DNA of 64,000 bases from Myxococcota bacterium (GTDB lineage Bacteria; Myxococcota_A; UBA9160; UBA6930). The DNA is taken from contig OZ245002.1 in the NCBI GenBank assembly GCA_965223415.1, positions 1,216,001 through 1,280,000 of the forward strand. The letters run 5' to 3'. The number at the start of each line of letters is the position of its first letter. The first letter of the stretch is position 1. The notes beneath the pieces were generated by a model. It ran no database searches. It was not told the origin of the DNA and worked only from the letters and a program-made list of their open reading frames with translations. Below, piece by piece: positions 1,012 to 27,492 of this stretch. A program made the position numbers and the translations under genes.

Positions 1012-1088
1012 GCGCCGGTAGCTCAGCTGGATAGAGCACCAGGCTTCGAACCTGGGGGTCGGGGGTTCGAATCCCTCCCGGCGTGCCA
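1012..1088 (+). tRNA. tRNA-Arg (anticodon TCG)
   Basis: 77-nt cloverleaf GCGCCGG...CCGGCGTGCCA; anticodon arm CCAGG-CTTCGAA-CCTGG; T-loop GTTCGAATC; encoded CCA. Confidence 0.97.
1039..1088 (+). repeat. attL core (3' part of the tRNA)
   Basis: 50 bp identical to 40793-40842; after one mismatch the match continues for 10 bp (AGATTCCGCG). Confidence 0.95.
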
Positions 1089-2280
1089 AAGATTCCGCGT
1101 ACTTGGAGAGCTCACGAGTACGCTCCCTATCGGCCGGTGCCGAATAGTGCCGTCCGGTGCCGCTTGGAAACTCCGCAAACGTCAGGTCCGTCTCTTCCTC
1201 GCGCATCGCGTGCGCGTAGACCCGAAGCGTGAGCGCCGGGTCGGCGTGCCCGAGGACGTCAGCGACCCAGCGGACAGACTTCCCCGATTGAAGCGCGAAC
1301 GTGGCCCAGGTGTGGCGGGTGGCGTGAAGCTTCAGAGGGCGAACTCCGTAGGCCTCCTGTGCCTTCTCTCGAACACGCTCCCAGGTTCGGCTGAGATTCC
1401 GGGGCGTGATGGGGGTTCCGTTTCGAGTCGAGAAGACCCACGGCGGCGCATCCTGGCCGCGCTCGGAGGCCGTGGCGCGGGCTTTCGCGAGGACATCGAA
1501 CAAGTCCTCAGCGAGGGCTTCTGTCATCGGGACGCGCCTCGACTTGCCGCTCTTCGGCGCGGTGATTCCCTGCTGAAGCAGCGAGCGGCGAATCCAGATT
1601 CTCCGGGAATCGAAATCGACGTCACTCCACCTGAGCGCCAGGACCTCGCCGCGGCGGACTCCGGTCGAAAGGAGCGTGGAGAGGATGGGTGCGAATTCAG
1701 GCTCAGAATCTCGGGCAGTCTGGAGGAGACTCTCAATCTCTTCGCGGGTCCAGTGCTCCGTGACTTCGGCGCCAGTGGAGCCAGCGCGCGAGACGCGGCG
1801 CATGAGCTCACCTACGTGCGAAGCCGGATTCCGCTCGAGCCTTCCCTCTCGAACGAGGAGAGTGCACACCCGGCGAAGTACGCCGAGCGCGTTCAGAATC
1901 GTCTTCGGGGACAGTCCATCGTCTAGCTTCGCCCTTACGAACCGAAGGAGGTCTGCCTCCTTGACCGCTCGAAGGTCCTTCGAGCGAAAGAACGGGATGA
2001 GATGATGTTCGATGAGCCCGTGGCTCAGTTCTGCCGTGGAGGGCTTGAGCGTCGCCGAGTACGCCTTGAACCAAGCGCGAAGCTCCGCATCAGCTCGAAG
2101 CGGCTTCTCGCCGTGCGGGTCGAAGGTGCCGAGTGCAAGCGAGGCGTTGACCTTTGCAGCGATGGTCTCCGCCGTGGCCTTGTCGCGCTTCGTGGGACCA
2201 ACGCGCTTCGTGGTCCGGGTGGAGCGGTAGTGGGTCACGACCCACCAAGCGCTGCGCATCCACTTGACCTTGGCTGCCAC
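1039..2280 (-). CDS. int: Tyrosine integrase; frame stays open through attL
   Basis: Catalytic residues R (TGVRRGE), K (PKSGK), HxxR (HATRH), H (LGH), Y (VYAH); N-terminal arm-binding-like domain. Confidence 0.93.
1136..1165 (+). promoter_or_regulatory. Candidate integrase arm-type sites (left arm)
   Basis: Three tandem 10-mers GGTGCCGAAT/AGTGCCGTCC/GGTGCCGCTT; AGTGCCGTCC recurs at 40686-40695. Confidence 0.6.
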
Positions 2281-2292
2281 GTTCTGGCTCCC

Positions 2293-2664
2293 CTACTCGC
2301 GTTCCCGGCGGTTTCGACTACCGGCCGGAAGCGAACCCTCGTCGCCGAAACTGGGGTCAGAGAGGGCCGAGAGAGCTTCTCCGACGGCGTCATGGACCTC
2401 GCCGTCCTGGGCGGTGATGAGCGAGTGGAGCCAGTCCCTCAGCGCAGCGAGCGGATAGACCCGAATCCGGGTGCCGGGCAGATACACTCCGGGCACGTGG
2501 TGAGAGATCTCGCGGAACTTCCTGGGGCTAATCCCTAGGGCCGCCGCAGCCTCAGGGGCGCGAAGGGCAATCGGTTCGATGGTCCTCTCGGGTGATTCGG
2601 CCACGGCTTGGGGGTCCTGCGCTCGGTGCACCCAAGAGGGTATGCAGACCCGGATGGCCGTCAA
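2293..2664 (-). CDS. Excisionase-like HTH protein
   Basis: ALRAPEAAAALGISPRKFREI helix-turn-helix; directly upstream of the integrase; start uncertain. Confidence 0.65.
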   Translation of the reverse strand: MTAIRVCIPSWVHRAQDPQAVAESPERTIEPIALRAPEAAAALGISPRKFREISHHVPGVYLPGTRIRVYPLAALRDWLHSLITAQDGEVHDAVGEALSALSDPSFGDEGSLPAGSRNRRERE

Positions 2665-3761
2665 CTAGCTGTTTTAGATGGAGAATCTCGGGAGAGGCTC
2701 TCCCGGGAACGCCACTCAGAGAACGACGGAATGCCCAGATCGGGCTCCAGAAGCCGATAGAGCTCGATTCGAACCAAGGTGGCCTCAGCCATCGGCTTCT
2801 CCCCGAACTCGGCGGAAACGGCTCGAGAGGCGGCCTCAACGAGACGCGCTCGCTCGCCATCAGGGAGCCGGTCGGCGGCGGCGCGAATCTCGTTCCGCTT
2901 CCACGCCTCGTAGCGAACGCGGGCGTCGTCCTCGGCGAGGCGTCGGGTTTGGTGCGCGTCACGGACCGAGCGAGCGAGTGCCTTGTCGAAGTCGGCCACG
3001 GCATCTTCGGCGTAGTCCATCACAGCCCCGAAGTGCTGCATCGGGTACTTGGTTCGCTGCGCCTCACAAAGCGCGTACTCAACGACATAGCGAGACTTCT
3101 CCTCGCCGTAGCTCTCAATGAGCGAGTGGGCCTGGTCAAGCTCGCGTGACTTCGGCTTCCGATGGGTTCGACCAAAGTGGTCATGAAAGAGCCGAACGAG
3201 TTCCCCTCCCCCTCCCTCGAGCACACCCCGTGTGTTCTTCTTCTCTACACACTTCTTGTTTATGTCGGGCCGGCCTGACACAGGCGTGCCTGACACTGGC
3301 CCAGTGTCAGGGCAAGCTGACACAGGCCCCTCGGGCGGCTTCGCTCGTCCGTACTTAAGCCCAGAAATCGGATGGATGAAGTACACGTTTCGGCCCCACC
3401 TAGTCGAGCCATCTGGGGCCGTCTCACGGCGGCGCTTCGTTGAAAGAACCGGGCGTCCTCGAAACCTGTACCTCTCGAGCCGGTTGATTCTGCCGTTCGC
3501 CCCTTGTCGGCTTATTCCGAGGTCTCGACCGATACGAGCCTGGCTCGGGCTGCAGTAGCCGTCTTCATCCACGTAGAGGGCCATCGCTGAGAGCGTCTTC
3601 CAGAGGTCATCGGGGATGTCGGCCAGAAGCCCAGAATCGCGCGCCTCGGTGTACATCTTTACGAACCGACGCTTGACCCGGTCTCCGGTCGACAGGTCGA
3701 CTTCGGTCTGAAACTCAACCGTGAGAAATGGGCTCTCCTGTGGGGTTCCTTTCTTTCGCAT
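2661..3761 (-). CDS. Replication initiator-like winged-HTH protein
   Basis: YCSPSQARIGRDLGISRQGANGRINRL (HTH_36-like); repetitive linker PVSACPDTGPVSGTPVSGRPD encoded by iterons. Confidence 0.7.
   Translation of the reverse strand: MRKKGTPQESPFLTVEFQTEVDLSTGDRVKRRFVKMYTEARDSGLLADIPDDLWKTLSAMALYVDEDGYCSPSQARIGRDLGISRQGANGRINRLERYRFRGRPVLSTKRRRETAPDGSTRWGRNVYFIHPISGLKYGRAKPPEGPVSACPDTGPVSGTPVSGRPDINKKCVEKKNTRGVLEGGGGELVRLFHDHFGRTHRKPKSRELDQAHSLIESYGEEKSRYVVEYALCEAQRTKYPMQHFGAVMDYAEDAVADFDKALARSVRDAHQTRRLAEDDARVRYEAWKRNEIRAAADRLPDGERARLVEAASRAVSAEFGEKPMAEATLVRIELYRLLEPDLGIPSFSEWRSRESLSRDSPSKTAS
3275..3326. repeat. Iterons inside rep (candidate origin)
   Basis: CTGACAC(A/T)GG at 3275, 3290 and 3317, inverted copy at 3301-3310, beside a T-rich tract at about 3235-3263. 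Confidence 0.7.
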
Positions 3762-3867
3762 ATCAGTTCCTGCCTAGGGCGAGATTCACCGTTGACGGTC
3801 CGTACGGATTCGGAGTAGGTAGGAGTTAATCCAGTTCTACCGCCGGGGTGCTGTCACACCCCGCTCC

Positions 3868-3904
3868 GAAAAGAGCGACCCGACTAGTCGGAGTCGCTTT
3901 TTTC
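3868..3904 (+). terminator. Intrinsic terminator-like hairpin in the rep leader, possibly bidirectional
   Basis: GAAAAGAGCGAC-CCGACTAGTCGG-AGTCGCTTTTTTC. Confidence 0.7.
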
Positions 3905-4027
3905 GTCTCTGGTGTCCGCGTAGTCTGTTCAATCCAAGTGCATCACCAGTCTCGGTGAGCACTACTTCTGGTTTAACCTGCTTGAAGTAGCTCTCGCAAT
4001 CGGGTTTCTCTGCGATTACGCCGTCGC

Positions 4028-4390
4028 CTACTTCCGCTTCGGCCTACCGGTTCGAAGGGGACCCTCGCGCTCCTTGAATGGCCTTCGGTCGTTGTGCTCC
4101 CGCTCTAGCTTCTTGACGTGTGCCATGAGCGCTTCGTCCGCGAACTCAGAAAGTGTGTACCGGTGAGGTGGTCCCGATAGTGCATCCACGGCGTTTCGAA
4201 CCCGCTCAATCGTGGAGGCTCGAATCCAGTAACCCTCCTTCTGCTTAAGTGGCGGAGGGTCCGCACTGGGAGGGCTCGACTGAGGTTCCTTCGTTCGCTG
4301 GCTAGAAGCAGCGCCGAACTTCTTCTTTCCCGAGGGAAACCCGCCCTTTAGGGCCTGAAGTGGGCTATCGGAGATGGCCTTCCTACTCAT
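4028..4390 (-). CDS. Small centromere-binding partition protein (type Ib, RHH-like C-terminus)
   Basis: Overlaps the parA end; disordered N-terminus, C-terminal GYWIRASTIERVRNAVDAL...LSEFADEAL...LRTGRP. Confidence 0.7.
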   Translation of the reverse strand: MSRKAISDSPLQALKGGFPSGKKKFGAASSQRTKEPQSSPPSADPPPLKQKEGYWIRASTIERVRNAVDALSGPPHRYTLSEFADEALMAHVKKLEREHNDRRPFKEREGPLRTGRPKRK

Positions 4391-5201
4391 TGGCTGCATT
4401 CCCGGCCGGGGCTTCAAGGGCGACCTTAGAAACGAACTCATCTGCGAGCGCCCCGTAGTCCAGTGCTCCAGAGCTCTTCGGTCGATGATGGTCAATCGGG
4501 AGCTTCGCCTGAGAAGCGCGCTTCAAGTCGACGTTCATCCGGATGACCGTCTCAAAGACAAGCTCTCCGAAGTGCGCCCGAATGTCCTCTAACGCGGCGA
4601 TGCTCATCGACTCTCTAACGTCGAGCTTCGTTCCAAGCACCCCGCAGATTGGTATCTCGGCTCTAGCGTCTCGCTCGGTCTCGGTGATGAACTGAACGAC
4701 CATCGCGGTTGGCTCGAGCGAGAGATAGGCGAGCTCGACGGGAAGAAGGACAGAATCCGAGGCAAGGAGCGCGCACTGAGTGTCGATTCCGAGGCTTCCC
4801 GGCGTATCGATTAGAACGAGGTCCCAGTCTGCACCGGGAACGCTTCGAAGCCCTTCCAGAGCATCGCGGAGGACGAACTCAGGCCGGGCCTTAAGCGAGG
4901 CCAGAGCAGTTTCAAGCGTCAGCAGGTCGAGGCTACTTGGGACAACGTCTACTCCCGACGGGGTTTCATAGACGAGAGCCTCAAGGCCTTGGCGAGCTAC
5001 AAGGGCTTCCACCAGCGCTTGGCCGTGGCTTCTCTCGGTCTCTGACGAAGGCGTTCGAAGCCAGTCGGTGGTCTGGTGTTGCCTATCGAGGTCGATTGCT
5101 AGAACGCGCCAGCCCCGTCGAGCGAGGGCGCTCGCGAGGTTCACCACCGTTGTGGTCTTCCCCACTCCACCTTTTGTGTTCAATACAGAGACCGTCTGCA
5201 C
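4383..5201 (-). CDS. parA: ParA family ATPase
   Basis: Deviant Walker A KGGVGKTT, IDLD and LIDTPG motifs. Confidence 0.95.
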   Translation of the reverse strand: MQTVSVLNTKGGVGKTTTVVNLASALARRGWRVLAIDLDRQHQTTDWLRTPSSETERSHGQALVEALVARQGLEALVYETPSGVDVVPSSLDLLTLETALASLKARPEFVLRDALEGLRSVPGADWDLVLIDTPGSLGIDTQCALLASDSVLLPVELAYLSLEPTAMVVQFITETERDARAEIPICGVLGTKLDVRESMSIAALEDIRAHFGELVFETVIRMNVDLKRASQAKLPIDHHRPKSSGALDYGALADEFVSKVALEAPAGNAANE

Positions 5202-5505: not shown

Positions 5506-6114
5506 CTAGGCAGCTCGACTTGTCTGTCTTCGGATGGACGCAGGCGCCTGGCGAAGTGTTGCGTAGACGCGCCGTTGGATGGGAGCGGCCGAGTAGGAGC
5601 GCGAAACCCGATACCGGATGAGGGGGACGCCCGCCGCGGCCAGGGCTGCATCTACAAAGCGGTCACGTTCTCTTCGGTCGGGCCGCCTGTGGGAAGCGTC
5701 ATCGAGCTCGATGCAGCAAGCCACTCGAAGCGAGTGTGGGTTCACGAGCGTGAAATCAAGGTGCTTTGAGGCGATTGGAGGGCCGTAGCCGTTCGACCAC
5801 TCGTCGTCAGAACAGTGAATCACGTCCGCGAGACGGACCTTGGGACACACCTTTAGGCCTGGCTCTACTGCATCGCGCAAGGCCGCGTAGAAGCGCGCTT
5901 CGGCCTTGGTGGCTAGGAAGGGGCGAGCCGAGTAGGGGAGCTCTGCCGGGTTGTTGGTGCGGTGAATCCTCCTGTAGCGCTCGTCTCGAAACTCATGAGC
6001 CCTGACGCCGGTGAGATAGAGAAACGTGACGACAATGAGGGCGCCAGTGAGCGAAAAGGGAAACACCGCGTGAAGTGCTGGAAGAAACGTCTCCATGGCC
6101 CAGAGTCTCACCAA
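5506..6114 (-). CDS. DUF2726 domain protein (REase-like fold, N-terminal TM)
   Basis: PKVRLADVI...KHLDFTLV...IELDDASH...RDRFVDAALAAAGVPLIRY. Confidence 0.9.
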   Translation of the reverse strand: MVRLWAMETFLPALHAVFPFSLTGALIVVTFLYLTGVRAHEFRDERYRRIHRTNNPAELPYSARPFLATKAEARFYAALRDAVEPGLKVCPKVRLADVIHCSDDEWSNGYGPPIASKHLDFTLVNPHSLRVACCIELDDASHRRPDRRERDRFVDAALAAAGVPLIRYRVSRSYSAAPIQRRVYATLRQAPASIRRQTSRAA

Positions 6115-6149
6115 TCCAGAATCTACGCAAACACCACGCGTGAGGTGAG

Positions 6150-7830
6150 TAGCGCCTCGGAGTGTGAGATGGTGCTCCGATGTAGGTCGCGAGACTCGTT
6201 ATGCACATGCACACGAGCTTGGCGATGTTCCTCATCGAGCACGGTGACGGGAAACAGGCACTACCAACGCCTGATAACCGGAAGCCTAACCAGCTTCGCT
6301 CGTCCGTGTCCTCGACGCGCCGGATGCATCGAGAGGTGCTTGTCCGGTGGAAGGAGGAGCTCTACGGGGAGAGCGCGAGCTCTCCGGAAACCCCTACCTG
6401 CAAGGTCAAACCAACGCCCCACGTGGGCAGACGAGAATGGAGGAAACGTTTTTGCTCTGCCGCATGGCAGAACTGTCTTTCTGGGGAAGTTCCCCAAGGA
6501 AGACCCGCCAGGAGGCGATTGACCACAGTAGGGACGGAATCCCGTAGTTCGACCTCATCAACCTCGGCCGCGAGTCGAGGAACTGGGGCGACCCTGAAAT
6601 CGTGTCGAGGGGAGACCTTCGGTGCGCGCGTGTTTCAAAGTCGAGACGAGAGTCTCGATGTTCCATGGCTGCGGCCTTGGGGCAGAGGTTTGAATCCTCT
6701 CAAGGGGAGAGTCCGTCGTGGTGTGGCTTGCTATCCACGGGCGGTGACGGCTGCGATGCCCAACTCACCTTGCTAGGCGCGGGAGTCAGTCTCGAGCAAT
6801 CGAGAGTGCCGGAAGTTGTCACTTCCGGGTGACCTTGGACCATGGTTTCACCATGAGGTCAAGGCACACGAATAGCTCAACGCGTTCATGGGCGAATGGA
6901 TGAAGCCCTACCTAGTACGGAATCTTGGAAGACGGGGGGTACCCGAAGGAAGTCGCGCGAAAACGGCGCGACTTCCCAAGCGGTACTGAAGGCCGAATCG
7001 TGAGAACCGGACTGTGACTACTTGGTAAGCGGGTGCTTTGTGGTTCTACCCGCCGAAAGCGTCTCCGCGGAGATGTGATTCCGATGACCTCGAGTGGGAG
7101 GCACGGACCCAGTACCGGAGTGCCCGTACGGGCTATGCGACGTGAGCCAAGATTCGATGATGCACGCTAAAGGGGGAGTCTCCTTCTGGGGACCGATGGT
7201 GGTTCATCGGTAAGCGGAGTGACGTCCGTTGGCGGTTCTTCGGAACCGACCCTTGAAGGAGAGGGAGCTCGACTGAGTAGGATGGCTCTGGGACTCGGAG
7301 TGAAACCATGGGGGTGGTTCCCGATGGTCACGCTCTTTCTGCTGGCAGTGGAAGGTCCTCTCCGTTTGAGCCTGGGTGGTACCAGGTGAGGAGCTAACGA
7401 AAGGTCGTTCGAGGACCTGGCGACAGGTCTCGGTGAGAACTAGCCAGAAGGCGCTTCGAACGAGAAGCGCGGGCAAGTGGCCACGAGAGGTTCTCCGGGA
7501 GGAGGCCTCTCGTGGCAGCTGGCACCAGCGAGAGCCGGAGTGATAGCTCCTGCTCTCGCACAAGTTGGGCGGAACCATCATGGAACATGATGGAGCTGTC
7601 TCTTCGTGGAACCACAGCTCTTGGCGCGAAGCGCCTGCACGATGCTGTGGCAACGGTCCGAAAACGAGGAAGGAGGTTTCAAGAACTGCGGCGAAACGGG
7701 GCCGTGGGCGAGCGCTGAAGTGAAGGGAGGCGAGACGATGGAAGGTCCATCGTCTCGCGCCGGCCCGGGGGCAGAAGGTTTGAGACGAAGGTCCGGGCAT
7801 TCGTGGAGTTGGCCGGCAACCTAACTCCAC
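6150..7830 (+). ncRNA. Candidate very large structured non-coding RNA (or folded ssDNA region)
   Basis: More than 20 back-to-back stem-loops, several with GNRA or C(UUCG)G loops on the + strand; no credible protein ORF; boundaries approximate. Confidence 0.55.
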
Positions 7831-7915
7831 CCCTTTCTCGGCTGTCGCATGCGGCGGTGGAGGACGGTGAGTTCGATGTTGATTCGCGACCTGACTTCGT
7901 GCGATGACGGGGGCT

Positions 7916-8389
7916 ATGGGAAAGGTTCGGCTTTCTTTCGAAGTCGACGAGGATGATGCCGCGGAGCTTTGCGAGGCAGCCACCGTGTGGTGCGAGGACG
8001 ACGTTCCAGGGCTCCTTCGACAGCTCGTCGGAAACCTTGCGAGTTGGTGTCGAGGGAATCGCGACTACGCTGAGGACCCCGATGAGTGGGCGGCATTCCT
8101 CGCATGGGACCCGGCGAACTTCGAATTCCTCGGGGACTTCGTTCGGGCGAACGCTCCGGCGTTCGAGACAGACTACGACCTCTCGCTAGGCGAGCTCCGG
8201 TACGGAAAGCAGATTTCGACGCGCGACTTCGCTGCTCTGAAACTCGAGGACGGCTCCATTTTTGTCTTCGATGACGGAAAGGCGTGGTTCCTTCGCGCCC
8301 CACGATTCGACCATCCGACGCTCTCAGCGCGGGCGCGTGATTCCATCCGGCGATTCACTGAGGCCAAGGTGGTGTCGTCGTGGAACTAG
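7916..8389 (+). CDS. Hypothetical protein
   Basis: Protein-like acidic ORF after a GGGG RBS-like motif, directly downstream of the structured region. Confidence 0.65.
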   Translation: MGKVRLSFEVDEDDAAELCEAATVWCEDDVPGLLRQLVGNLASWCRGNRDYAEDPDEWAAFLAWDPANFEFLGDFVRANAPAFETDYDLSLGELRYGKQISTRDFAALKLEDGSIFVFDDGKAWFLRAPRFDHPTLSARARDSIRRFTEAKVVSSWN

Positions 8390-8503: not shown

Positions 8504-9310
8504 ATGGCGACCGAACCTGCTTTCCCAACCGAATGCCCATCTATCGAAGCGCTTGTGCAGCGCGTGGTGAACCTTGCTGGCCACGGGTACTTCTACTTCT
8601 GTAATGGTGAGCTCGGAAAGGGAGACAACCGGAGTGAGCTCGACCGAAAGATGGTCGAGAAGTACTGCCTCCTCAAGCACGGCTGCCGCGCTCTCTCGAA
8701 ACCGAGGCGCTCTCGTCGCCGGAAAAATGGCCTCGCAAATGTCGACTACTTTCGCTTCCGGTACGGCTTTGTTCTGATGGCCACCGAAGGCCTGGTCGCC
8801 ATGGGAGTCGACGACCCGGACACCTTCCGAGACATTCGAGAGAGCCCGCTTCGCTTTGGCGACTACCAGGTAGCGGTGACGAACGTCGGGTTCTCAGAGG
8901 GGGGGGCACTCTCTGCGAAGGTCTGGACAGAACTCACGGACGTGGCGCTTCAGGCCCTTCGCCGCGAGTTCATGGCCCGAGCAGGCGACAGGCGAGCGGG
9001 TTGGCTTGAGAGCGAGTTCTACTCGGTTCAGTACAACTGCTACCGAGGAATTCGCGTTCAGCTTCGTTCAATTCTGGACGAGGTGAACCGCTATCGCAGG
9101 GTGAGGGGACTAGGAACACTCTCCCCTGGCTGCATCAAGTTCACACGGGAACTCCCGAAGCACTTCTCCGATGAACGGTTTAGTGCGTCGGATGCAAATG
9201 TGGTGCCTACTCAGACTCTCGCTGCTCCCAAACCGGCGGAAGCTCGACGCCAAGAACCAACCTGTAGAGCGAGAGCGTGGCGAGGTGAATCTCTACCGCA
9301 GCGCGCCTGA
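8504..9310 (+). CDS. Basic hypothetical protein of a plasmid/ICE-type family
   Basis: GYFYF...ELDRKMVEKY...RRRKNGLANVDYFR...VLMATEG...YRGIRVQLRSILDEVNRYR; resembles, from recollection, uncharacterised mobile-element proteins. Confidence 0.7.
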   Translation: MATEPAFPTECPSIEALVQRVVNLAGHGYFYFCNGELGKGDNRSELDRKMVEKYCLLKHGCRALSKPRRSRRRKNGLANVDYFRFRYGFVLMATEGLVAMGVDDPDTFRDIRESPLRFGDYQVAVTNVGFSEGGALSAKVWTELTDVALQALRREFMARAGDRRAGWLESEFYSVQYNCYRGIRVQLRSILDEVNRYRRVRGLGTLSPGCIKFTRELPKHFSDERFSASDANVVPTQTLAAPKPAEARRQEPTCRARAWRGESLPQRA

Positions 9311-9734
9311 CATCCGTTGAACTGAGGGCCTCAACCGAGGTCTTGAGCTTCCCGCGAGCTGAACCCGTGGCAATCAGGTGGTGTCCCGATCCGTCTGGGG
9401 CGATTCCGTCGTGCATGAAGCGATTCCTCTTTCGCTGGGCAACGCGGAGCTTCGAGAGCACTTCCTCATGCCCAAGAAGACGCGGGTCGTGCGGTCCGAG
9501 TTGCTCACATAGCGAACCAAGCGCATCGAGCTTCTGAGGGAAGCTCATGTGGTTGAAGAGGATGAAGGGAGTTGGGTCGTGCACCTCGTCGAAGCCAGCG
9601 AGCTTCCCGAGACAGAGGTTCATGAGCGAATCGAGCGTCGTCCAGAGAGACGCTACACGCCCAAGTTCCTCTAGGAAGTCGGCGGGTAGGGGCCATCCAG
9701 AGAGGTCGAGTGAGTCGAGCTCTGCGTTCTTCAT
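9207..9734 (-). CDS. HEPN-like protein
   Basis: All-helical 175 aa with RxxxxH motif RNRFMH; divergent from Gabija. Confidence 0.55.
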   Translation of the reverse strand: MKNAELDSLDLSGWPLPADFLEELGRVASLWTTLDSLMNLCLGKLAGFDEVHDPTPFILFNHMSFPQKLDALGSLCEQLGPHDPRLLGHEEVLSKLRVAQRKRNRFMHDGIAPDGSGHHLIATGSARGKLKTSVEALSSTDVRRAAVEIHLATLSLYRLVLGVELPPVWEQRESE

Positions 9735-9901
9735 ACCACTCCCTATTGCGCCCTTGTATTGGCATCGAACAACGCGATTCTGCCCCAACGCGAGATGCGC
9801 CGTCTCGTCAAGTTTGCCCCACCCAAACGGGTGGAGGGAGAGCGATAGCGCCCGCTTGTGGCTCAACGGCTATCGTCGAGGACTTGAACCGGAGGTCCGT
9901 T

Positions 9902-11668
9902 GTGTATATCTCCAGGTTAGTTGTCCGCAATCTTCGAAACTTTGAACGGTGTGACGTTGAGCTCCGCGATGGGGCGACTTGTGTCGTGGGCGAGAACAAC
10001 AGCGGAAAGTCCAACCTTCTCTATGCGATTCGGCTGGTTCTTGACCAGTCACTTCCGAACTACACCAGGGTCCTCACGGAGGACGACGTCCACTCAGGTT
10101 GCGATATCTCGCACCCTTCCGACGTATTGGTGTCTGTGGAGTTCCGGAACTGGGCTGATTCGGTGAAGGCTTCTGCGCTCGTTGGTGAGTGGGAAGTTGA
10201 GCCTGACCGAGCGCGGCTTACCTACCGGTTCCGCCCCCGGAAAGCTGTCCGAGATGACCTTGATGCGGGGGAGAGGCGGCCCGGGAGCCTGTCTATTGGT
10301 GACTACGGGTGGGAGCTCCGCGGCGGTGGCGCGGTGGACCCAGTGGAGCTCACTTGGGATGTCGACACCGGGACCAGCCCCCGGCCAGGGCATCTCCAGG
10401 CGTTCCAGGTCTCTTTCCTTCACCCACTCAGAGACGTGGAGAGAGACCTTAGGGCCGTCCGGACGTCCCCGCTGAATCGGATTCTGGAGGTTGTGGGGAT
10501 TCCAGATGCGGAGAAGGAGAAGCTTGTCGCACTACTCGCCAAGGCCAACGAGGAGATCGCAGCCTCTAAGACCGTTACGGAGGTAGGCAAGGACATCTCG
10601 AGCTCCTTCGGGGAAACCTCGGGGCCCGCCTCCAAGCTGGACTTGAAGCTGGGAGTCGCAGCACCGTCCTTCTCTACGGTGACCCGTGCCCTGCGGGTGT
10701 TGTTGTCGGATTCGGCCCTCTCAGACTTCGACACCTCGAGAAACGGGCTTGGGCTCAACAACGTGCTCTACATCAGCATGCTGCTTCAGGACTTCGAGGC
10801 TCGAGCGAAGACCGATGGAGTGGCCGGACAGCTGCTCTTGGTTGAGGAGCCCGAAGCTCATCTTCATCCGCAACTCCAGCGGACTCTGTACGACGTACTC
10901 GCGGAGAAGGACTTCCAGTCGATTCTCACGACGCACAGCACTCACGTCACCTCGAAGGCCAAGCTCAACTCGGTAGTGACGCTTGCTCGAACGGGCGGAC
11001 CAGCTGTGTCTGTGGCTCAACCGGGCCGCGTCGCCGGAGTAGCGGCGAAGGAAGTCGCGGACCTAGAGCGCTATCTCGACGCTACCCGCTCAACGCTGCT
11101 GTACGCGCGAGCGGTGATGCTCGTAGAGGGCCCTGCGGAACTGTTCCTCATCCCAGAGCTCGCTCTTTCCGTGATGGGGAAAGACCTCGACCGGGAGGGT
11201 ATTTCAGTCATCCCCATCTATGGGACCCACTTCGCGGCGTACGCACCCCTCTTCCGTGATGGGTCCATGAAGAAGCGCTGCGCGATTGTCGGAGACAAAG
11301 ACCTGAAGCCGTCTGACGCCGAGGATGCTCCTGACCCCGCGCGCGTAACCGAGCTTCTGGCACTTCAAAGCGACACCGTGAAGGTATTCTTGGGCGATAC
11401 CACCTTTGAACGCGAGCTCGCGGTTTCCGGCATGGTAGGGCCGCTGCTCGCTGCCGCGAAGGAGTTCAACGCAACGTCACTGATTGCAGAGGCGGAGGAA
11501 TCACAGCAGGCGGGTGAACCGACCGACGAGCTGGCCGAGCGAATCCTCGCAACGGCGCGACGCGTCGGGAAAGCCCGGTTCGCACAGGCGCTCTCGAAGC
11601 ACGTCGGCGATGCCACGGCGATGCCCGAGTACGTCAAGCAAGCGGTGGACTTCCTGGTGGCAGAGTAG
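9902..11668 (+). CDS. gajA: OLD-family ATP-dependent nuclease (Gabija GajA-like)
   Basis: GENNSGKS Walker A, VEEPEAHLHP, TTHS, TOPRIM VEGPAE and DKD; GGAGG RBS before GTG. Confidence 0.88.
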   Translation: MYISRLVVRNLRNFERCDVELRDGATCVVGENNSGKSNLLYAIRLVLDQSLPNYTRVLTEDDVHSGCDISHPSDVLVSVEFRNWADSVKASALVGEWEVEPDRARLTYRFRPRKAVRDDLDAGERRPGSLSIGDYGWELRGGGAVDPVELTWDVDTGTSPRPGHLQAFQVSFLHPLRDVERDLRAVRTSPLNRILEVVGIPDAEKEKLVALLAKANEEIAASKTVTEVGKDISSSFGETSGPASKLDLKLGVAAPSFSTVTRALRVLLSDSALSDFDTSRNGLGLNNVLYISMLLQDFEARAKTDGVAGQLLLVEEPEAHLHPQLQRTLYDVLAEKDFQSILTTHSTHVTSKAKLNSVVTLARTGGPAVSVAQPGRVAGVAAKEVADLERYLDATRSTLLYARAVMLVEGPAELFLIPELALSVMGKDLDREGISVIPIYGTHFAAYAPLFRDGSMKKRCAIVGDKDLKPSDAEDAPDPARVTELLALQSDTVKVFLGDTTFERELAVSGMVGPLLAAAKEFNATSLIAEAEESQQAGEPTDELAERILATARRVGKARFAQALSKHVGDATAMPEYVKQAVDFLVAE

Positions 11669-13426
11669 GTGAAACTCACCAACGACCAGCGAGATGCGAC
11701 CCGGATTCCGGGCGACGTCTTGCTCGAGGCCTGCCCCGGAAGCGGCAAGACGACCACCCTCATCGCGAAGCTCCTGCGATGTGCCGACGATGTCCGCGAC
11801 TCGGTACGGCGTGTCGGGTGCATCACCTACACAAACGCAGCAGTTCATGAAATTGAGCACCGTCTTCGACTCTACGCCATCGCGGATGACGAAGAGCGAT
11901 TCGACATCGCGACGATTCACTCATTCTGTCTACGCAACATCCTTGGGCCGTTCCATTGGATGCTCCCCGAGTACCGAGACGGCTTCGAGGTTGCGGCGCC
12001 CGACAGCGAGGCGTTTCAAAGCCGGGCCGATACGGTGGCGGATGACTTCTTGCTCAACCACCGCTCAGCTCGCGAGAGCTTCGAAGTCGCTAACCGACTT
12101 CCGGATGGCTCCCCGGTTGTGCGCCCTCCCACGCCACCCGAAGCGGTGCTTCAGTTCTGGGACTCTCTGTCTAGCGACGGCCTTATCGACTTCACCAACA
12201 TCGTGTTTCGTTCGTTCGAGCTCCTCACTCAGCACCCAAGCCTCCTCTCCAGCATCCAGGCGAAGTACGCCTGGGTTCTCCTAGACGAGTTCCAGGACAC
12301 GACAGCACTTCAGGTCGAGCTCTTGAAGCTCATCGCAGATGGCGAAAGGACGAGGTTCTTCCTCGTAGGGGACACACGCCAGTCCATCTTCGGCTTCGCT
12401 GGTAGCGACCCTTCGCTCATGTCCGAGTTCGGCAACCACGTTGGCGCCACCCAGGGCCCGCCGCTGGTCGAGAACTTTCGGTCGAGCTGGAAGGTCGTAG
12501 AGCACGCCGAGAGACTCCTCGAAGGCTCCGCGCCGATGGAAGCGAAGGGCGAATGGGCGGATTACGGCGCAGAGCCCAAGCTAGTCGAGTGTGAGAATCC
12601 CTTTGTCTCCATCACGGACCACTTTCTTCCCGCGCTTGCCGACCATGGAATCGGGTACGGCGATGCGGCGGTTCTTGCCGCCCAGTGGTTCAGCCTCTAT
12701 CCGCTTGCGGGCCGACTGCGGGAGTTCGGAGTACCCGTGGTAGGGCCCGGTGCGCGACCGTATCGACGTTTGCACTTCTACGCGTCACTGGCGGAGCAGC
12801 TTTGTGCTCAAGCTGAGAACCCTCGACCGGACCGCATTAGGCAGGTGGAACGCGAGGTCTTCTTCCTGCTGAACGACCTCACGGGCGATGCACTAAACAG
12901 CGTTTACTCCTTCCGCGGCCGCATGGTGATTGAGCGGCTCATCCGCCTCGCGCATGAGAAGCGAGAACAACACGACGGGGCACTGGCCTGGTTGCGGGAG
13001 TCAGCGGAGGAAGTCGGTGCGGTACTCCAGCATGAAGGATGGCTCGGGTCGGCGGACGTGACTCGCTTGGTGGAGTCTGTGGACGGCATGGTGGCCGACA
13101 TGGAGAAGAACGACGTCGACGTCGAGAATCTCCTTGTGTCGGACCTGGGGATGTTCGCGGACCCAGCGGAGAGCCTGAAGCTCCTGACTCTCCATCGGGC
13201 CAAGGGGAGAGAGTTCGACGCCGTTGCGATAATCGACGTGCACGATGGGATGATTCCACACTCGTCGGCCAAGACTGAGGAGGCGGTCGACGAAGGCAGG
13301 CGCTTGTTCTACGTGGGTATTACGCGAGCGAAGAGGCTTCTCTTCTACTTCACAAGCAGCGAGAACTGGCGACCACTGAGCAGGTTCTTGGGCCCGGGAG
13401 AGCTCGAGTTGCTGGACGCCCCTTAG
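11669..13426 (+). CDS. gajB: UvrD-like SF1 helicase (Gabija GajB-like)
   Basis: ACPGSGKT, LDEFQD, VGDTRQSIFGF, ENFRS, TLHRAKGREF, YVGITRA; abuts the OLD gene. Confidence 0.88.
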   Translation: MKLTNDQRDATRIPGDVLLEACPGSGKTTTLIAKLLRCADDVRDSVRRVGCITYTNAAVHEIEHRLRLYAIADDEERFDIATIHSFCLRNILGPFHWMLPEYRDGFEVAAPDSEAFQSRADTVADDFLLNHRSARESFEVANRLPDGSPVVRPPTPPEAVLQFWDSLSSDGLIDFTNIVFRSFELLTQHPSLLSSIQAKYAWVLLDEFQDTTALQVELLKLIADGERTRFFLVGDTRQSIFGFAGSDPSLMSEFGNHVGATQGPPLVENFRSSWKVVEHAERLLEGSAPMEAKGEWADYGAEPKLVECENPFVSITDHFLPALADHGIGYGDAAVLAAQWFSLYPLAGRLREFGVPVVGPGARPYRRLHFYASLAEQLCAQAENPRPDRIRQVEREVFFLLNDLTGDALNSVYSFRGRMVIERLIRLAHEKREQHDGALAWLRESAEEVGAVLQHEGWLGSADVTRLVESVDGMVADMEKNDVDVENLLVSDLGMFADPAESLKLLTLHRAKGREFDAVAIIDVHDGMIPHSSAKTEEAVDEGRRLFYVGITRAKRLLFYFTSSENWRPLSRFLGPGELELLDAP

Positions 13427-21893: not shown

Positions 21894-21919
21894 CCTCCCC
21901 AGTCCGACGAGGAGCCTCG

Positions 21920-22483: not shown

Positions 22484-22690
22484 ATGGAGCTGTCCTCAGA
22501 CGGGGCGAGAGCCCGCTGGGTGGCGGCAACGAGCTTGGCGACCACTGGCCTTATGTGTCAGATGTTCGCAAGGATTTGGAGGCTTGTGGTCGCCAAGCCG
22601 CGTAGGCCTCACTGAAGCGGTTTATTCCCCACCTAGGTATGAGCCAACACACCCGCAGCGTGGGTGGAGGGAGCGGGCCCGCGCTCTCTT

Positions 22691-22708
22691 TCATAGCCAC
22701 TCTTATGA
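22691..22708 (-). promoter_or_regulatory. dif-like recombination core site 2 (inverted relative to site 1)
   Basis: Reverse complement TCATAA-GAGTGG-CTATGA, 16/18 identical to site 1. Confidence 0.6.
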
Positions 22709-22902: not shown

Positions 22903-24131
<1,229 letters not shown>

Positions 24132-25386: not shown

Positions 25387-25392
25387 GGGACC

Positions 25393-25991: not shown

Positions 25992-25994
25992 GCG

Positions 25995-27455: not shown

Positions 27456-27492
27456 CGGGCCCTCCACGGATGGGTGCTTCGGGCCACAGATA

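What the first reader, a model, noticed from the sequence alone, without database searches (positions are those of the whole stretch)
6150..7830. ~1.7 kb densely folded non-coding region: candidate giant structured RNA on a mobile element
Seen: the gap between DUF2726 and the next real gene is almost continuous stem-loops. Examples: GCATC-GAGA-GGTGC (6326), GGAGAGC-GCGA-GCTCTCC (6368), TCGAGAC-GAGA-GTCTCGA (6641), TCTCGA-GCAA-TCGAGA (6790), CCGGAAGT-TGTC-ACTTCCGG (6809), CGGTTC-TTCG-GAACCG (7233), GACCTG-GCGA-CAGGTC (7414), a ~16-bp stem with GGGA loop (7480-7516) and a 13-bp perfect stem (7730-7758). The stems have unrelated sequences, so this is not a repeat array. The loops read as GNRA/UUCG on the + strand and G-T pairs occur. 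Known: such loops typify structured RNAs; large ncRNAs such as GOLLD, ROOL and OLE are under about 1 kb. Inference: an undescribed large ncRNA, or a folded ssDNA origin/promoter region, beside the rep-par module.
Basis: partly seen in the sequence, partly recalled or inferred. Interest (0 to 1): 0.88.

Follow-up and report, generated by a model that had tools for sequence, protein, structure and literature searches.

The report
Circularly permuted group II ribozyme
The densely folded "non-coding gap" is a circularly permuted group II self-splicing ribozyme, a known but rare RNA class predicted to cut out a tiny RNA circle, carried here with its partner-protein gene on a conjugative element.

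Summary
Window 6100-7900 folds 5-8 SD better than dinucleotide shuffles while flanking genes sit near zero. It has no conserved ORF and no repeats.

It is not an undescribed RNA. [quoted passage not shown] 2021, PMC8637638), with domain order D5-D6-[27-nt circle]-D1-D2-D3-D4. The class hallmarks are present in order:
- D5 at 6317-6350
- bulged branch A6552
- 3' splice site after U6558
- linker with hairpin at 6559-6585
- class-specific 5' splice site GGGCGA at 6586-6591
- EBS1/IBS1 pairing and the P2-D2 kissing loop

Covariance models built only from six relatives hit the window in the right order. They also hit published CP RNAs at their published coordinates (junction model 4 of 4) and gave nothing better than E = 0.6 in 66 canonical-intron loci. 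Covariation is strong.

A conserved structured 3' extension reaches about 7833. The 268-aa gene downstream is a divergent AcpG (HHalign 94.7%).

New lead: AcpG-like proteins weakly but repeatedly resemble group II intron reverse transcriptase/maturases.

The parts
6231..6370 (+). 5' module of the CP ribozyme. It contains a closing helix (6234-6240 with 6359-6365), a P1-like arm (6248-6280, hairpin 6255-6273), the P2 hairpin (6281-6298, loop CUAACCA) and D5.
   Evidence: Model R1, built from six relatives only, matches full length at 46.2 bits, E = 4.6e-11. The same model hits the 5' end of the published G. diazotrophicus plasmid CP RNA (27 bits, E = 1.4e-5). Covariation: 94.7% of cells paired and 25 of 39 pairs changed on both sides.
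6317..6350 (+). Domain V (catalytic hairpin). Triad C6318-G6319-C6320 pairs with G6347-U6348-G6349 and includes the G-U wobble. Then come 5 bp, a U6340-U6341 bulge, a 5-bp upper stem and a GAGA loop (6331-6334).
   Evidence: Rfam Intron_gpII match at 6315-6403: 27.1 bits, below the gathering score of 40, E = 0.011. 13 of 14 consensus pairs form. The sequence is nearly identical to the D5 of L003, which passes Rfam at 47.6 bits. The 'UN bulge, five base pairs from the triad' description is from PMC8637638 section 9.
6351..6558 (+). Domain VI, enlarged to 208 nt by an expansion found only in the window (about 6371-6530). Base helix GAGG 6354-6357 with CCUC 6553-6556. The inferred branch point A6552 is bulged, and the 3' splice site follows A6557-U6558.
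   Evidence: The stand-alone MFE fold closes with this helix and leaves G6551-A6552 unpaired; z = -5.26 and 0 of 200 shuffles fold as well. The 3' strand UUCGACCUCAU matches rows of the published alignment, which read UUCGACCC-AAU. Model R3 match.
6559..6585 (+). Linker between the 3' and 5' splice sites, predicted to be released as a 27-nt circular RNA. Internal hairpin CCUCG 6562-6566 with CGAGG 6576-6580. The last 7 nt, GGAACUG (6579-6585), are the proposed IBS1.
   Evidence: Bounded by the class splice-site motifs. The length lies within the published 15-86 nt range, and a linker stem-loop is a described class feature (PMC8637638 sections 9 and 12). R3 match at 6531-6645, E = 2.2e-4. Circle formation itself is inferred, not shown.
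6586..7175 (+). Domain I. Contents: 5' splice-site motif GGGCGA (6586-6591); first hairpin 6603-6611 with 6616-6624; conserved GAAUAGCUCAACG (6870-6882); EBS1 hairpin 7028-7054 with loop UGGUUCU (7041-7047). Expansions found only in the window include 6790-6830 and about 6885-6985. The 3' boundary is approximate.
   Evidence: GGGCGA is invariant in all 7 aligned sequences and equals the class 5' splice-site consensus GGGCG (PMC8637638 section 12). R2 match at 6856-7061, 29.1 bits, E = 2.9e-6. nhmmer hit at 6991-7182, E = 3.2e-8. EBS1/IBS1 complementarity of 7 bp, 4 Watson-Crick and 3 G-U.
7179..7261 (+). Domain II region. Hairpin 7193-7210 (CCGAUG-GUGGUU-CAUCGG) has loop UGGUU (7200-7204), complementary to the P2 loop AACCA (6288-6292). 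This is the proposed kissing-loop pseudoknot.
   Evidence: RNAalifold helices and covariation. Cognate P2/D2 loop complementarity is 5-6 nt in 5 of the 6 sequences that have both loops; 8 of 720 permutations score as high. The domain label is inferred from position.
7268..7430 (+). Domain III-like helix (7268-7274 with 7406-7413), with the GAGUAG motif just after its 5' strand, followed by a D4-like terminal hairpin GACCUG-GCGA-CAGGUC (7414-7429).
   Evidence: One search gives 43 consensus pairs, 29 with compensatory changes. One search gives 93.4% of cells paired against 34-48% for slid controls. The D4-like hairpin was read by eye in the alignment and was not scored. Domain labels are inferred from position.
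7435..7833 (+). Conserved structured 3' extension. Long hairpin 7476-7491 with 7505-7520 (14 of 14 pairs in the window); small conserved hairpin near 7561-7582; terminal hairpin GUGGAGUU 7803-7810 with AACUCCAC 7823-7830. In relatives the terminal loop is conserved as (U)GUGCC...AAAC. The hairpin at 7730-7758 is found only in the window.
   Evidence: RNAalifold on the window plus 5 relatives. 37 pairs, 23 changed on both sides, 85.1% of cells paired against 36-47% for slid controls, 0 of 500 shuffles as high. Function unknown.
7904..8389 (+). 161-aa ORF between the RNA and the AcpG-like gene. No relative has it at this position. It may or may not be a real gene.
   Evidence: Only itself was found among 5.8 billion clustered proteins. 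No Pfam, NCBIfam or PADLOC match.
8504..9310 (+). AcpG-like protein (268 aa), the conserved same-strand downstream partner of this ribozyme lineage.
   Evidence: A homologue lies downstream on the same strand in all 6 relatives; in two of them only the N-terminus is present, at the contig end. HHalign against Thermus AcpG (TTHC007) family: 87.4%, rising to 94.7%, E = 5.8e-8, 155 columns with a 90-sequence alignment. Both families match the protein next to the published G. diazotrophicus CP RNA.

Best explanation
Window ~6231-7435 (plus strand) encodes a circularly permuted group II ribozyme with domain order D5-D6-linker-D1-D2-D3-D4. It is followed by a conserved structured 3' extension to about 7833 and, further downstream on the same strand, a divergent acpG gene (8504-9310).

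By analogy with the members tested in vitro by Roth et al., the folded transcript would react in two steps:
1. [quoted passage not shown] D5 (CGC triad and UU bulge) forms the metal-ion active site, and the D1 loop UGGUUCU holds the linker end GGAACUG.
2. The freed 3'-OH attacks the 3' splice site after U6558. This back-splices the 27-nt linker into a circle and leaves a branched, T-shaped RNA.

In that product, D1-D4, the 3' extension and possibly the acpG message stay joined to D5-D6 through a 2'-5' bond.

Shown here: homology, permuted architecture, conserved structure and gene linkage.
Inferred: transcription, catalysis, the exact splice sites and any role of AcpG.

The module sits on an integrative conjugative element inserted at tRNA-Arg, next to a Gabija defence system. 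As for the whole class, its biological role is unknown.
For: 1. Ordered hallmarks are read directly from the sequence: D5, bulged A, AU 3' splice site, 27-nt linker with hairpin, then GGGCGA. These match the class description in PMC8637638 (sections 9 and 12) and rows of its Stockholm alignment.

2. Six relatives with the same layout were found:
- Leptolyngbya plasmid.
- Two Gemmataceae, Planctomicrobium, Phycisphaerae and Hydrogenedentales.
- All 4 relatives scanned pass Rfam Intron_gpII on D5/D6 at 45.9-49.4 bits.

3. Held-out covariance models, built from the relatives only:
- R1 hits window 6231-6370, E = 4.6e-11.
- R3 hits 6531-6645, E = 2.2e-4.
- R2 hits 6856-7061, E = 2.9e-6.
- The three hits are collinear, as in the relatives.

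4. The same models hit published CP RNAs inside their published coordinates and on the correct strand: R3 4 of 4 (E = 1.4e-4 to 0.014), R2 2 of 4 (E = 7.8e-4 and 0.065), R1 1 of 4 (E = 1.4e-5).

5. Negative controls: 66 canonical-intron loci (415,482 bases). Best E = 0.6 for R2 and 1.2 for R3.

6. Covariation:
- 94.7%, 93.5% and 89.0% of cells paired, with 25 of 39, 11 of 20 and 16 of 25 pairs changed on both sides. 0 of 500 shuffles reach the covariation score.
- 3' parts.

7. The class-specific P2-D2 kissing loop co-varies. EBS1/IBS1 pairs at one alignment column.

8. AcpG linkage.

9. The strongly negative folding z-scores include the expansions found only in the window.
Against: - The window copy is the most divergent member. 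Its Rfam D5/D6 score (27.1 bits) is below the gathering score of 40.
- It forms only 115 of 164 consensus pairs under my alignments, partly because of misalignment.
- Several relatives' helices are absent or replaced, and there are large insertions in D6 and D1. It could therefore be catalytically impaired.
- Profiles built from the four published RNAs alone gave only a non-significant hit in the window: E = 0.89, though at the right place, 6530-6600.
- R1 missed 3 and R2 missed 2 of the 4 published RNAs.
- EBS1/IBS1 fits poorly in L076, L012 and L069. The kissing loop fails in L012, and the window's partner hairpin was reassigned by eye after MAFFT aligned a different one.
- Alignments A10-A12 were fitted to the model structure. 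The A13 and A14 structures were predicted from the same alignments on which they were counted.
- R3 also gave two hits elsewhere in the window at E = 0.005-0.007. They lack GGGCGA and I judged them to be chance.
- No promoter-like site was found. There are no expression data.
Confidence: 0.9

Rival explanations
1. It is a decaying, catalytically dead relic of a CP group II ribozyme that still folds but no longer back-splices.
For: It is the most divergent member. It forms 115 of 164 consensus pairs and has a sub-threshold Rfam score. Large insertions lie in D6 and D1. An orphan ORF is inserted between the RNA and acpG.
Against: - Every catalytic landmark tested is intact: D5 with 13 of 14 pairs, triad, bulge and GNRA loop; bulged A6552; both splice-site motifs; 7-bp EBS1/IBS1; 5-bp kissing loop.
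- The insertions are themselves very well folded hairpins with GNRA or UUCG loops (z = -5 to -6). That looks like ordered expansion rather than drift.
- The acpG gene is intact.
Confidence: 0.12
2. It is an undescribed giant structured RNA class unrelated to known families.
For: No Rfam family reaches its gathering score in the region. No blastn match in the plasmid or phage collections. The conserved length of about 1.6 kb exceeds published CP RNAs, which are about 800-1170 nt (coordinates).
Against: [quoted passage not shown] Held-out models connect it to published members. Rfam's silence is explained by the absence of any CP model.
Confidence: 0.02
3. It is the D5-D6 remnant of a canonical group II intron lying next to unrelated structured DNA.
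For: The only Rfam signal is D5/D6. D5 here resembles canonical D5, with a GNRA loop.
Against: - There is no room for D1-D4 upstream: the DUF2726 gene ends at 6114.
- D1-like modules lie downstream instead.
- The 5' splice-site motif GGGCGA follows D6 by 27 nt.
- The same layout recurs in six genomes from several phyla.
- No RT ORF is present in the region.
Confidence: 0.02
4. The structure acts as single-stranded DNA, for example an oriT, a single-strand origin or a promoter region of the conjugative element.
For: It lies on an ICE that carries a relaxase and a coupling protein, and beside ParA/ParB. The 7300-7599 window folds equally well on both strands.
Against: It is homologous to RNAs with demonstrated ribozyme activity. 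Conserved G-U pairs make the structure strand-specific. Over 6100-6999 the plus strand folds better than the minus strand. The relaxase lies 27 kb away.
Confidence: 0.02

Closest known systems
Circularly permuted (CP) group II ribozymes (Roth, Weinberg, Vanderschuren, Murdock and Breaker 2021, PMC8637638; cryo-EM of Cte-1 and Gdi-1 as cited in PMC13717195)
   Same: - Domain order D5-D6-D1-D2-D3-D4.
- GGGCG 5' splice site and AU (NU) 3' splice site around a short linker that contains a hairpin.
- UN bulge in D5, five base pairs from the triad.
- Bulged branch adenosine.
- EBS1 loop pairing with the linker end.
- 5' P1/P2 module and P2-D2 kissing loop.
- No RT ORF inside.
- AcpG gene nearby.
- Located on plasmids and mobile DNA.
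   Different: - D5 has a canonical-type GNRA tetraloop and, in the window, a CGC triad. The visible published rows mostly show 6-nt GUAAUG-type loops and AGC.
- The relatives' D5/D6 pass Rfam Intron_gpII, whereas none of the four published RNAs tested does.
- The RNA is larger: about 1.2 kb core plus a conserved extension of about 0.4 kb.
- acpG is always downstream on the same strand (7 of 7), whereas the paper reports variable orientation.
- The hosts I found include Planctomycetota, Cyanobacteriota and Hydrogenedentota. These names are absent from the paper's supplementary files, and the paper names Deinococcus-Thermus, Firmicutes and Proteobacteria.
Canonical bacterial group II introns (Rfam RF00029; the intron-bearing loci among L004-L083)
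   Same: D5 sequence and shape, D6 with a bulged A, EBS/IBS logic, and overall domain content.
   Different: - The order is permuted.
- The 5' splice-site motif is GGGCG rather than GUGYG.
- There is no intron-encoded RT in D4.
- The splice sites are internal, so the predicted product is a small circle plus a branched RNA, not spliced exons plus a lariat.
- Models R2 and R3 do not match 66 canonical loci.
[quoted passage not shown]
   Same: Similar length (about 220-270 aa). Encoded next to a CP group II RNA. Collinear profile match over about 155 columns (94.7%). The two AlphaFold models have the same order of secondary-structure elements.
   Different: Only about 19% identity in the HHalign alignment. 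BLASTP and tblastn do not connect them directly. The window's family is far larger than was apparent: 1,629 representative clusters at E <= 1e-3.
Group II intron-encoded reverse transcriptase/maturase (IEP)
   Same: - It is the best Foldseek PDB hit for both AcpG models (8t2s_D for the window protein; 8fli_B for Thermus AcpG).
- In the viral library it is the highest-probability hit.
- HHalign against 15 IEPs gives 54%, E = 1.3e-4. The match lines up the RT5 hairpin and the RT7 FLG motif.
   Different: - About half the size.
- No YADD catalytic motif, and no fingers region aligned.
- No Pfam RVT_1 or maturase match in 0 of 90 members.
- All fold matches have E > 0.001 and TM-scores of 0.2-0.4.
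Other large bacterial ncRNAs (GOLLD, ROOL, OLE, HEARO; names recalled from memory)
   Same: Large, ornate and often linked to mobile elements.
   Different: None of Rfam's 4227 families matched the region even at E <= 10, apart from the D5/D6 signal and short low-scoring chance matches.

Membership tests
CP group II ribozyme | Permuted domain order: D5-D6 lie upstream of D1-D4 | tested here: met
   D5/D6 lie at 6315-6558. D1 modules lie downstream at 6586-7182. There is no room upstream, because a gene ends at 6114.
CP group II ribozyme | 5' splice-site consensus GGGCG at the start of D1 | tested here: met
   GGGCGA at 6586-6591 is invariant in 7 of 7 aligned sequences. The consensus is from PMC8637638 section 12 and is visible in rows of its alignment.
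CP group II ribozyme | D6 with a bulged branch adenosine and an NU 3' splice site | tested here: met
   UUCG[A6552]CCUCAU. The MFE fold leaves G6551-A6552 bulged, 6 nt before the site. Use of the branch point itself is not testable here.
CP group II ribozyme | Short linker (15-86 nt) between the 3' and 5' splice sites, often with a stem-loop | tested here: met
   27 nt (6559-6585), with hairpin CCUCG/CGAGG. R3 match at E = 2.2e-4.
CP group II ribozyme | D5 with a catalytic triad, five base pairs, then a UN bulge | tested here: met
   CGC triad with a G-U wobble, then 5 bp, then a UU bulge. The triad is CGC rather than AGC. Five of six relatives have AGC, and L003 has CGC.
CP group II ribozyme | EBS1 loop in D1 complementary to the 3' end of the linker (IBS1) | tested here: met
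   Window UGGUUCU (7041-7047) pairs with GGAACUG (6579-6585) over 7 bp, 3 of them G-U. The loop sits at the same alignment column in L040, L003 and L037, with co-varying positions. The fit is weaker in L076, L012 and L069.
CP group II ribozyme | Class-specific 5' P1/P2 stems upstream of D5 | tested here: met
   R1 matches full length in the window and in the published Gdi plasmid RNA. All pairs of helices 2-4 change on both sides.
CP group II ribozyme | P2 loop to D2 loop pseudoknot | tested here: met
   Window AACCA/UGGUU. It co-varies in L040, L076, L037 and L069 and fails in L012; L003 has no P2. 8 of 720 permutations score as high. The window hairpin was reassigned by eye.
CP group II ribozyme | P1 loop to 3' end pseudoknot, and D3 loop to D1 pseudoknot | not tested
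   The published structure lines beyond about column 400 were cut in the copy I could read. I did not search for these pairings.
CP group II ribozyme | No intron-encoded RT ORF within or beside the RNA | tested here: met
   No Pfam hit for ORFs in the gap and no conserved ORF.
CP group II ribozyme | AcpG gene nearby (frequent, not obligatory) | tested here: met
   The 268-aa protein against the AcpG family scores 94.7%, E = 5.8e-8. 7 of 7 loci of this lineage have it.
CP group II ribozyme | Back-splicing activity: a small circle plus a branched RNA | not testable with these tools
   Requires in vitro transcription and an RT-PCR assay.
Canonical group II intron | Order D1-D6, with a GUGYG 5' end and splice sites at the termini | tested here: not met
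   The order is permuted. The motif at the start of D1 is GGGCG.
Reverse transcriptase (RVT_1 / group II IEP), considered for the AcpG-like protein | Palm motifs including the catalytic YxDD, and a Pfam RVT_1 match | tested here: not met
   The aligned hairpin reads YLRxxRFF in place of RYADDF. 0 of 90 members match RVT_1 or a maturase family. The PDB sequence search finds no RT.
Reverse transcriptase (RVT_1 / group II IEP), considered for the AcpG-like protein | RT-like palm and thumb fold | tested here: inconclusive
   The top Foldseek hits are group II RTs for two independent models, but E is 0.012 and 0.11, and TM-scores are 0.29-0.42. HHalign gives 54%. Thermus AcpG against the IEPs gives 0.1%.

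The most novel reading that the evidence does not exclude
AcpG may be a catalytically dead palm-plus-thumb remnant of the group II intron-encoded reverse transcriptase/maturase. If so, CP group II ribozymes did not lose their protein partner. They moved a stripped-down maturase outside the RNA.

In this lineage the ribozyme, a conserved 0.4-kb structured extension and acpG would form one plus-strand transcription unit. Back-splicing would then leave the acpG message carrying a branched 2'-5' ribozyme cap at its 5' end. The protein could in turn bind the RNA to promote or regulate the reaction.
Probability: 0.3. Interest if true: 0.72.

Novelty: new member of a known kind. Interest (0 to 1): 0.45.

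Why it matters
CP group II ribozymes are one of the few large natural ribozyme classes with no known biological role. They are also of practical interest for making circular RNA.

This locus and its six relatives:
- extend the class to further phyla;
- show a lineage in which ribozyme and acpG are strictly co-oriented, with a conserved structured spacer between them;
- place the module inside a conjugative element next to partition genes and a Gabija defence system.

The partner protein family is large (1,629 representative clusters) and unannotated. The recurring, weak resemblance of two divergent AcpG models to group II intron RT/maturases gives a concrete, testable idea for what AcpG is. 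The 2021 paper reported that no homology had been found.

For genome annotation, Rfam 15 cannot detect this class, so such regions will keep being flagged as "novel giant RNAs".

Tried and rejected
- blastn of 6115-7903 against plasmids and phages found no match.
- tblastn and BLASTP of the 268-aa protein against pTT8 TTHC007 found nothing direct. The 161-aa ORF against TTHC007 also found nothing.
- An ordered-motif regex chain matched only 1 of 11 true RNAs and was abandoned as badly designed.
- An nhmmer profile of the four published RNAs gave only E = 0.89 in the window and 0.14-0.16 in L076 and L040.
- Whole-domain covariance models were not possible because of the tool's size and time limit. 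Three short models were used instead.
- R1 was not run on the canonical loci, because it contains D5 and would match them.
- Two extra R3 hits in the window (19244-19324 and 45468-45559, both minus strand) lack GGGCGA and have no R1 or R2 support. I judged them to be chance.
- Rfam placed the D6 closing at CCUACCU (~6394-6400). I rejected that in favour of 6546-6558, which matches both the relatives and the published consensus.
- MAFFT aligned the window hairpin 7213-7230 to the relatives' D2 hairpin. I rejected that in favour of 7193-7210.
- The promoter and terminator scan gave 0 promoter-like sites, and terminator-like sites were no more frequent than in shuffles.
- The AcpG-like profile against PDB sequences gave best E = 0.45 and no RT. 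Pfam on 90 members gave no RT. NCBIfam and PADLOC gave no family.
- Accessions NC_010683, NC_012790 and NC_012851 from the paper's alignment are not in the collections.

Left unchecked:
- 43 loci (L084-L126) have only 300-nt flanks and were not classified beyond their D5 context.
- The taxon of the window was not determined.
Full report
OBSERVATION

Folding was tested in 300-nt windows with 30 dinucleotide-preserving shuffles each:
- Plus strand: z = -5.08, -5.85, -5.27, -1.55, -8.06 and -2.15 from 6100 to 7899.
- The 16 flanking windows lie between -2.33 and +1.52.
- The minus strand is weaker over 6100-6999 (-1.56, -3.76, -3.29).

Other checks support a non-coding, non-repetitive region:
- No tandem repeats.
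- No Pfam match for the ORFs inside the gap.
- No conserved reading frame. Of 33 frames of at least 40 aa, the only translated matches to related loci are 12-46 aa long, occur in several frames on both strands, and mostly lie over the D5 nucleotides.

WHAT RFAM SAYS, AND WHY IT MISLEADS

At gathering thresholds the 64-kb window contains only a tRNA-Arg and an ALIL pseudoknot. At relaxed thresholds the one meaningful signal is group II intron domain V/VI at 6315-6403: 27.1 bits against a gathering score of 40, E = 0.011.

This D5 has the textbook shape: triad with a G-U wobble, five base pairs, a 2-nt bulge and a GNRA loop. But it lies at the 5' end of the structured region, with no room upstream for D1-D4. 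[quoted passage not shown] 2021. For PMC8637638 I read sections 8, 9, 10, 12 and 17, part 1 of section 18, part 1 of supplementary file 3, and term searches in the supplements.

Rfam 15 has no model for this class. None of four published CP RNAs gets any hit at gathering score.

HALLMARKS IN THE WINDOW (read)

- D5 at 6317-6350: CGC triad, U6340-U6341 bulge (the class has a "UN" bulge five pairs from the triad), GAGA loop.
- D6 at 6351-6558. Its 3' strand, UUCG-A6552-CCUCAU, resembles the UUCGACCC-AAU seen in rows of the published alignment. Folded alone it closes with GAGG/CCUC and leaves G6551-A6552 bulged.
- A 27-nt linker at 6559-6585 containing a hairpin. The published range for the excised circle is 15-86 nt.
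- GGGCGA at 6586-6591, which matches the class-specific 5' splice-site consensus GGGCG rather than the canonical GUGYG.

RELATIVES

blastn found nothing in plasmids or phages.

tblastn with the downstream 268-aa protein found a Leptolyngbya boryana plasmid. There, a D5/D6 that passes Rfam (47.6 bits) lies about 1 kb upstream of the homologous gene on the same strand, and its D5 is nearly identical to the window's.

Most are canonical introns. Five share the permuted layout: two Gemmataceae, Planctomicrobium, a Phycisphaerae MAG and a Hydrogenedentales MAG. Loci L084-L126 have only 300-nt flanks and were not classified further.

HELD-OUT HOMOLOGY TESTS

An nhmmer profile of the six relatives, built without the window, hits the window at D5 and again at 6991-7182 (E = 3.2e-8). 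The canonical loci match only around D5/D6.

Three covariance models were built from the six relatives only. In the window they hit in the same order as in the relatives:

| Model | Window hit | Bits | E-value |
|---|---|---|---|
| R1 (P1/P2 and D5) | 6231-6370 | 46.2 | 4.6e-11 |
| R3 (D6 3' strand, linker, 5'SS, first D1 hairpin) | 6531-6645 | 19.6 | 2.2e-4 |
| R2 (AUAGCUC core to EBS1 hairpin) | 6856-7061 | 29.1 | 2.9e-6 |

The same models were searched against bona fide CP RNAs. Their coordinates come from the paper's alignment, and the records were fetched as loci.
- R3 finds 4 of 4, inside the published coordinates and on the right strand: pTF62 1.4e-4, pTT8 4.1e-4, G. diazotrophicus plasmid 2e-3, Polaromonas 0.014.
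- R2 finds 2 of 4: Polaromonas 7.8e-4 and pTT8 0.065.
- R1 finds 1 of 4: the G. diazotrophicus plasmid at 1.4e-5, exactly at the RNA's 5' end.

In 66 canonical-intron loci (415,482 bases), R2 and R3 give nothing better than E = 0.6 and 1.2.

Two weak R3 hits elsewhere in the window lack GGGCGA and are treated as chance. The reciprocal profile built from the four published RNAs is too weak to be significant: E = 0.89 in the window, although at the right place.

STRUCTURE CONSERVATION

| Alignment | Sequences | Cells paired | Pairs changed on both sides | Slid controls, cells paired |
|---|---|---|---|---|
| A10 (R1) | 8 | 94.7% | 25 of 39 | 34-43% |
| A11 (R3) | 11 | 93.5% | 11 of 20 | 42-57% |
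| A12 (R2) | 10 | 89.0% | 16 of 25 | 36-47% |

The window and the published RNAs are included in these three alignments. In every case 0 of 500 shuffles reach the observed covariation score. These alignments were fitted to the models, which favours the structure.

On plain MAFFT alignments with RNAalifold structures:
- 7101-7440 has 43 pairs, 29 compensatory, 93.4% of cells paired against 34-48% for slid controls.
- 7432-7903 has 37 pairs, 23 compensatory, 85.1% against 36-47%.

For these two, the structures were predicted from the same alignments on which they were counted.

Two class-specific tertiary pairings were also checked.
- EBS1/IBS1: the D1 loop UGGUUCU (7041-7047) pairs with the linker end GGAACUG. 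The loop is at the same alignment column in L040, L003 and L037, with co-varying positions, but the fit is poorer in L076, L012 and L069.
- P2-D2 kissing loop: window AACCA/UGGUU; L040 CACCA/UGGUG; L076 UACCAC/GUGGUA; L037 UUACGA/UCGUAA; L069 UCACCA/UGGUGA. L012 fails and L003 has no P2. 8 of 720 permutations score as high. The window's partner hairpin was reassigned by eye from 7213-7230 to 7193-7210.

Under these alignments the window forms 115 of 164 consensus pairs. It is the most divergent member, with its own expansions in D6 (about 6371-6530) and D1 (for example 6790-6830, and a 98-nt insert seen by R2).

EXTENT

- The ribozyme core is about 6231-7435.
- Beyond it, the long hairpin at 7476-7520 (14 of 14 pairs in the window) and a terminal hairpin at 7803-7830 with a conserved loop in relatives are shared with the relatives.
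- The conserved structured RNA therefore reaches about 7833.
- In the relatives the terminal hairpin lies some tens of nucleotides before the acpG-like start codon. In the window an orphan 161-aa ORF intervenes.

PARTNER PROTEIN

A homologue of the 268-aa protein lies downstream on the same strand in 6 of 6 relatives. In two of them only the N-terminus is present, at the contig end.

The link to AcpG rests on profile comparisons:
- Its family matches the Thermus AcpG (TTHC007) family at 87.4% (E = 3.7e-6, 158 columns).
- With a 90-sequence alignment this rises to 94.7% (E = 5.8e-8, 155 columns).
- Both families match the 264-aa protein next to the published G. diazotrophicus RNA (91.8% and 90.3%).

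An exhaustive profile search finds 1,629 representative clusters at E <= 1e-3, 1,093 at <= 1e-10 and 346 at <= 1e-30. No Pfam, NCBIfam or PADLOC family covers them.

A search for "AcpG" together with "group II" returned only the 2021 paper as relevant. The two later structural papers concern RNA catalysis; I read the outline and Introduction of PMC13717195, and the outline and section 14 of the bioRxiv preprint.

A LEAD ON ACPG

An AlphaFold2 model of the window protein (pLDDT 87.9, pTM 0.78) has no Foldseek match at E <= 0.001. Even so, its best PDB matches are chains from:
- group II intron RNP or RT entries (8t2s_D at E = 0.012, probability 0.75; also 8h2h_D, 8t2r_D, 8fli_B, 9d5x, 6ar3/6ar1, 6me0_C);
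- retron and DRT reverse-transcriptase entries;
- viral RdRps;
- two spliceosome entries.

In the viral library the highest-probability match is annotated "group II intron reverse transcriptase/maturase" (probability 0.72).

An independent model of the Thermus-type AcpG (pLDDT 92.6, pTM 0.90) again has a group II intron RNP chain as its top hit (8fli_B, E = 0.11). Its highest TM-score, 0.42, is to 6me0_C. The rest of that list is low-probability noise.

Supporting and opposing evidence:
- HHalign of the AcpG-like family against 15 intron-encoded proteins taken from the canonical loci gives 54%, E = 1.3e-4 over 119 columns. It aligns the conserved hairpin YLRxxRFFVLLAT with RT5 (VRYADDFVI, aspartates lost) and F.GYSI with the RT7 FLGY.I motif.
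- The Atlas language-model search names RVT_1 as the nearest Pfam-bearing cluster, at a score of 0.79. The tool rates that as a lead only.
- Against: Thermus AcpG versus the IEPs gives 0.1%. Sequence HMMs see nothing. I identified the matched PDB chains as the intron proteins from the entry titles and chain lengths, not by inspection.

I rate this as a hypothesis with a probability of about 0.3-0.4.

CONTEXT

The module lies in an integrative conjugative element at tRNA-Arg (1012-1088). In order, the element carries:
- an integrase;
- ParB-like and ParA genes, then DUF2726;
- the ribozyme, the 161-aa ORF and acpG-like;
- Gabija GajA (E = 1.6e-213) and GajB (E = 1e-212);
- a ResIII/DEAD helicase, a second integrase and an IS3 with its ALIL frameshift element;
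- a TIR-domain protein;
- a TrwB-type coupling protein and a TrwC relaxase.

Partition genes also flank the Leptolyngbya and Planctomicrobium copies. Published members lie on small plasmids.

VERDICT

The claim of novelty is not.

This is a new, enlarged and divergent member of a known ribozyme class. Three features are worth follow-up:
- the strict co-orientation with acpG;
- the conserved 3' extension;
- the possible RT/maturase ancestry of AcpG.

Transcription, catalysis and function remain untested.

Noticed in passing
window 9710-13426 (+): A complete Gabija defence pair lies immediately downstream of the module: GajA (OLD-family ATPase/TOPRIM, PADLOC E = 1.6e-213) and GajB (UvrD helicase, E = 1e-212).
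   Followed up: partly
window 24103-25233 (-): A TIR-domain protein (Pfam TIR_2, E = 3.6e-23) matches the PADLOC candidate PDC-S66 and ThsB-like models. It is probably a second defence gene on the element.
   Followed up: no
window 1012-2280 and 20829-36484: The region has the hallmarks of an integrative conjugative element: tRNA-Arg with an adjacent tyrosine integrase, a second integrase (20829-21893), a TrwB/TraG coupling protein (32139-34472, minus strand) and a TrwC relaxase (34469-36484, minus strand). GC content falls from about 0.70 at the tRNA side to about 0.60 inside.
   Followed up: partly
window 22903-23853 (-): An IS3-family transposase (rve, HTH_21) with its ALIL programmed-frameshift pseudoknot at 23737-23853 (Rfam, 115.7 bits).
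   Followed up: no
window 7904-8389 (+): A 161-aa acidic ORF sits between the RNA's terminal hairpin and acpG-like. It has no homologue among 5.8 billion clustered proteins and no family match, and no relative has it at this position. It could be a lineage-specific insertion or not a gene at all.
   Followed up: partly
window 9207-9866 (-): A 219-aa ORF with no family match overlaps the 3' end of the acpG-like gene by about 100 nt, in convergent orientation. The C-terminal 45 residues or so of the 268-aa protein are not conserved in relatives and have low pLDDT, so the true acpG-like stop, or this ORF, may be mis-called.
   Followed up: no
L001 (B. cereus plasmid pMRY14-0075_3, 6009 bp) 5616-5989 and 311-955: This 6-kb plasmid carries an AcpG-like gene (311-955). 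Just upstream across the origin it has matches to the junction model (5616-5722, E = 1.3e-4) and the D1 model (5869-5989, E = 0.08). It is probably an unannotated CP group II ribozyme taking up about a fifth of the plasmid. No D5 was detected by Rfam or R1.
   Followed up: partly
L128 (G. diazotrophicus pGDIPal5I) locus 2029-5050: About 3 kb is unannotated around the published CP RNA (locus 3091-3959). The divergently oriented 264-aa hypothetical protein (1235-2029, minus strand) bridges the Thermus AcpG family and the window's family in profile comparisons.
   Followed up: partly
AcpG-like protein family (P0088-P0236 and beyond): The family has 1,629 representative clusters at E <= 1e-3 but no Pfam, NCBIfam or PADLOC model. 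Many members are 280-430 aa long with N-terminal extensions of 50-200 residues, which I did not examine.
   Followed up: no
L048/L049 (Candidatus Phytoplasma australasiaticum contig): Two D5 matches lie 2,066 bp apart on the same strand, and several phytoplasma loci carry CGC- or AGC-type D5 variants. These may be multiple or tandem group II introns. I did not examine them.
   Followed up: no
L126 (300-nt flanks only): Its D5 context (GGGCGCCGG...GGUGCUAG) resembles the window/Leptolyngbya type rather than the canonical type. It may be a further CP relative, but the flank is too short to tell.
   Followed up: no
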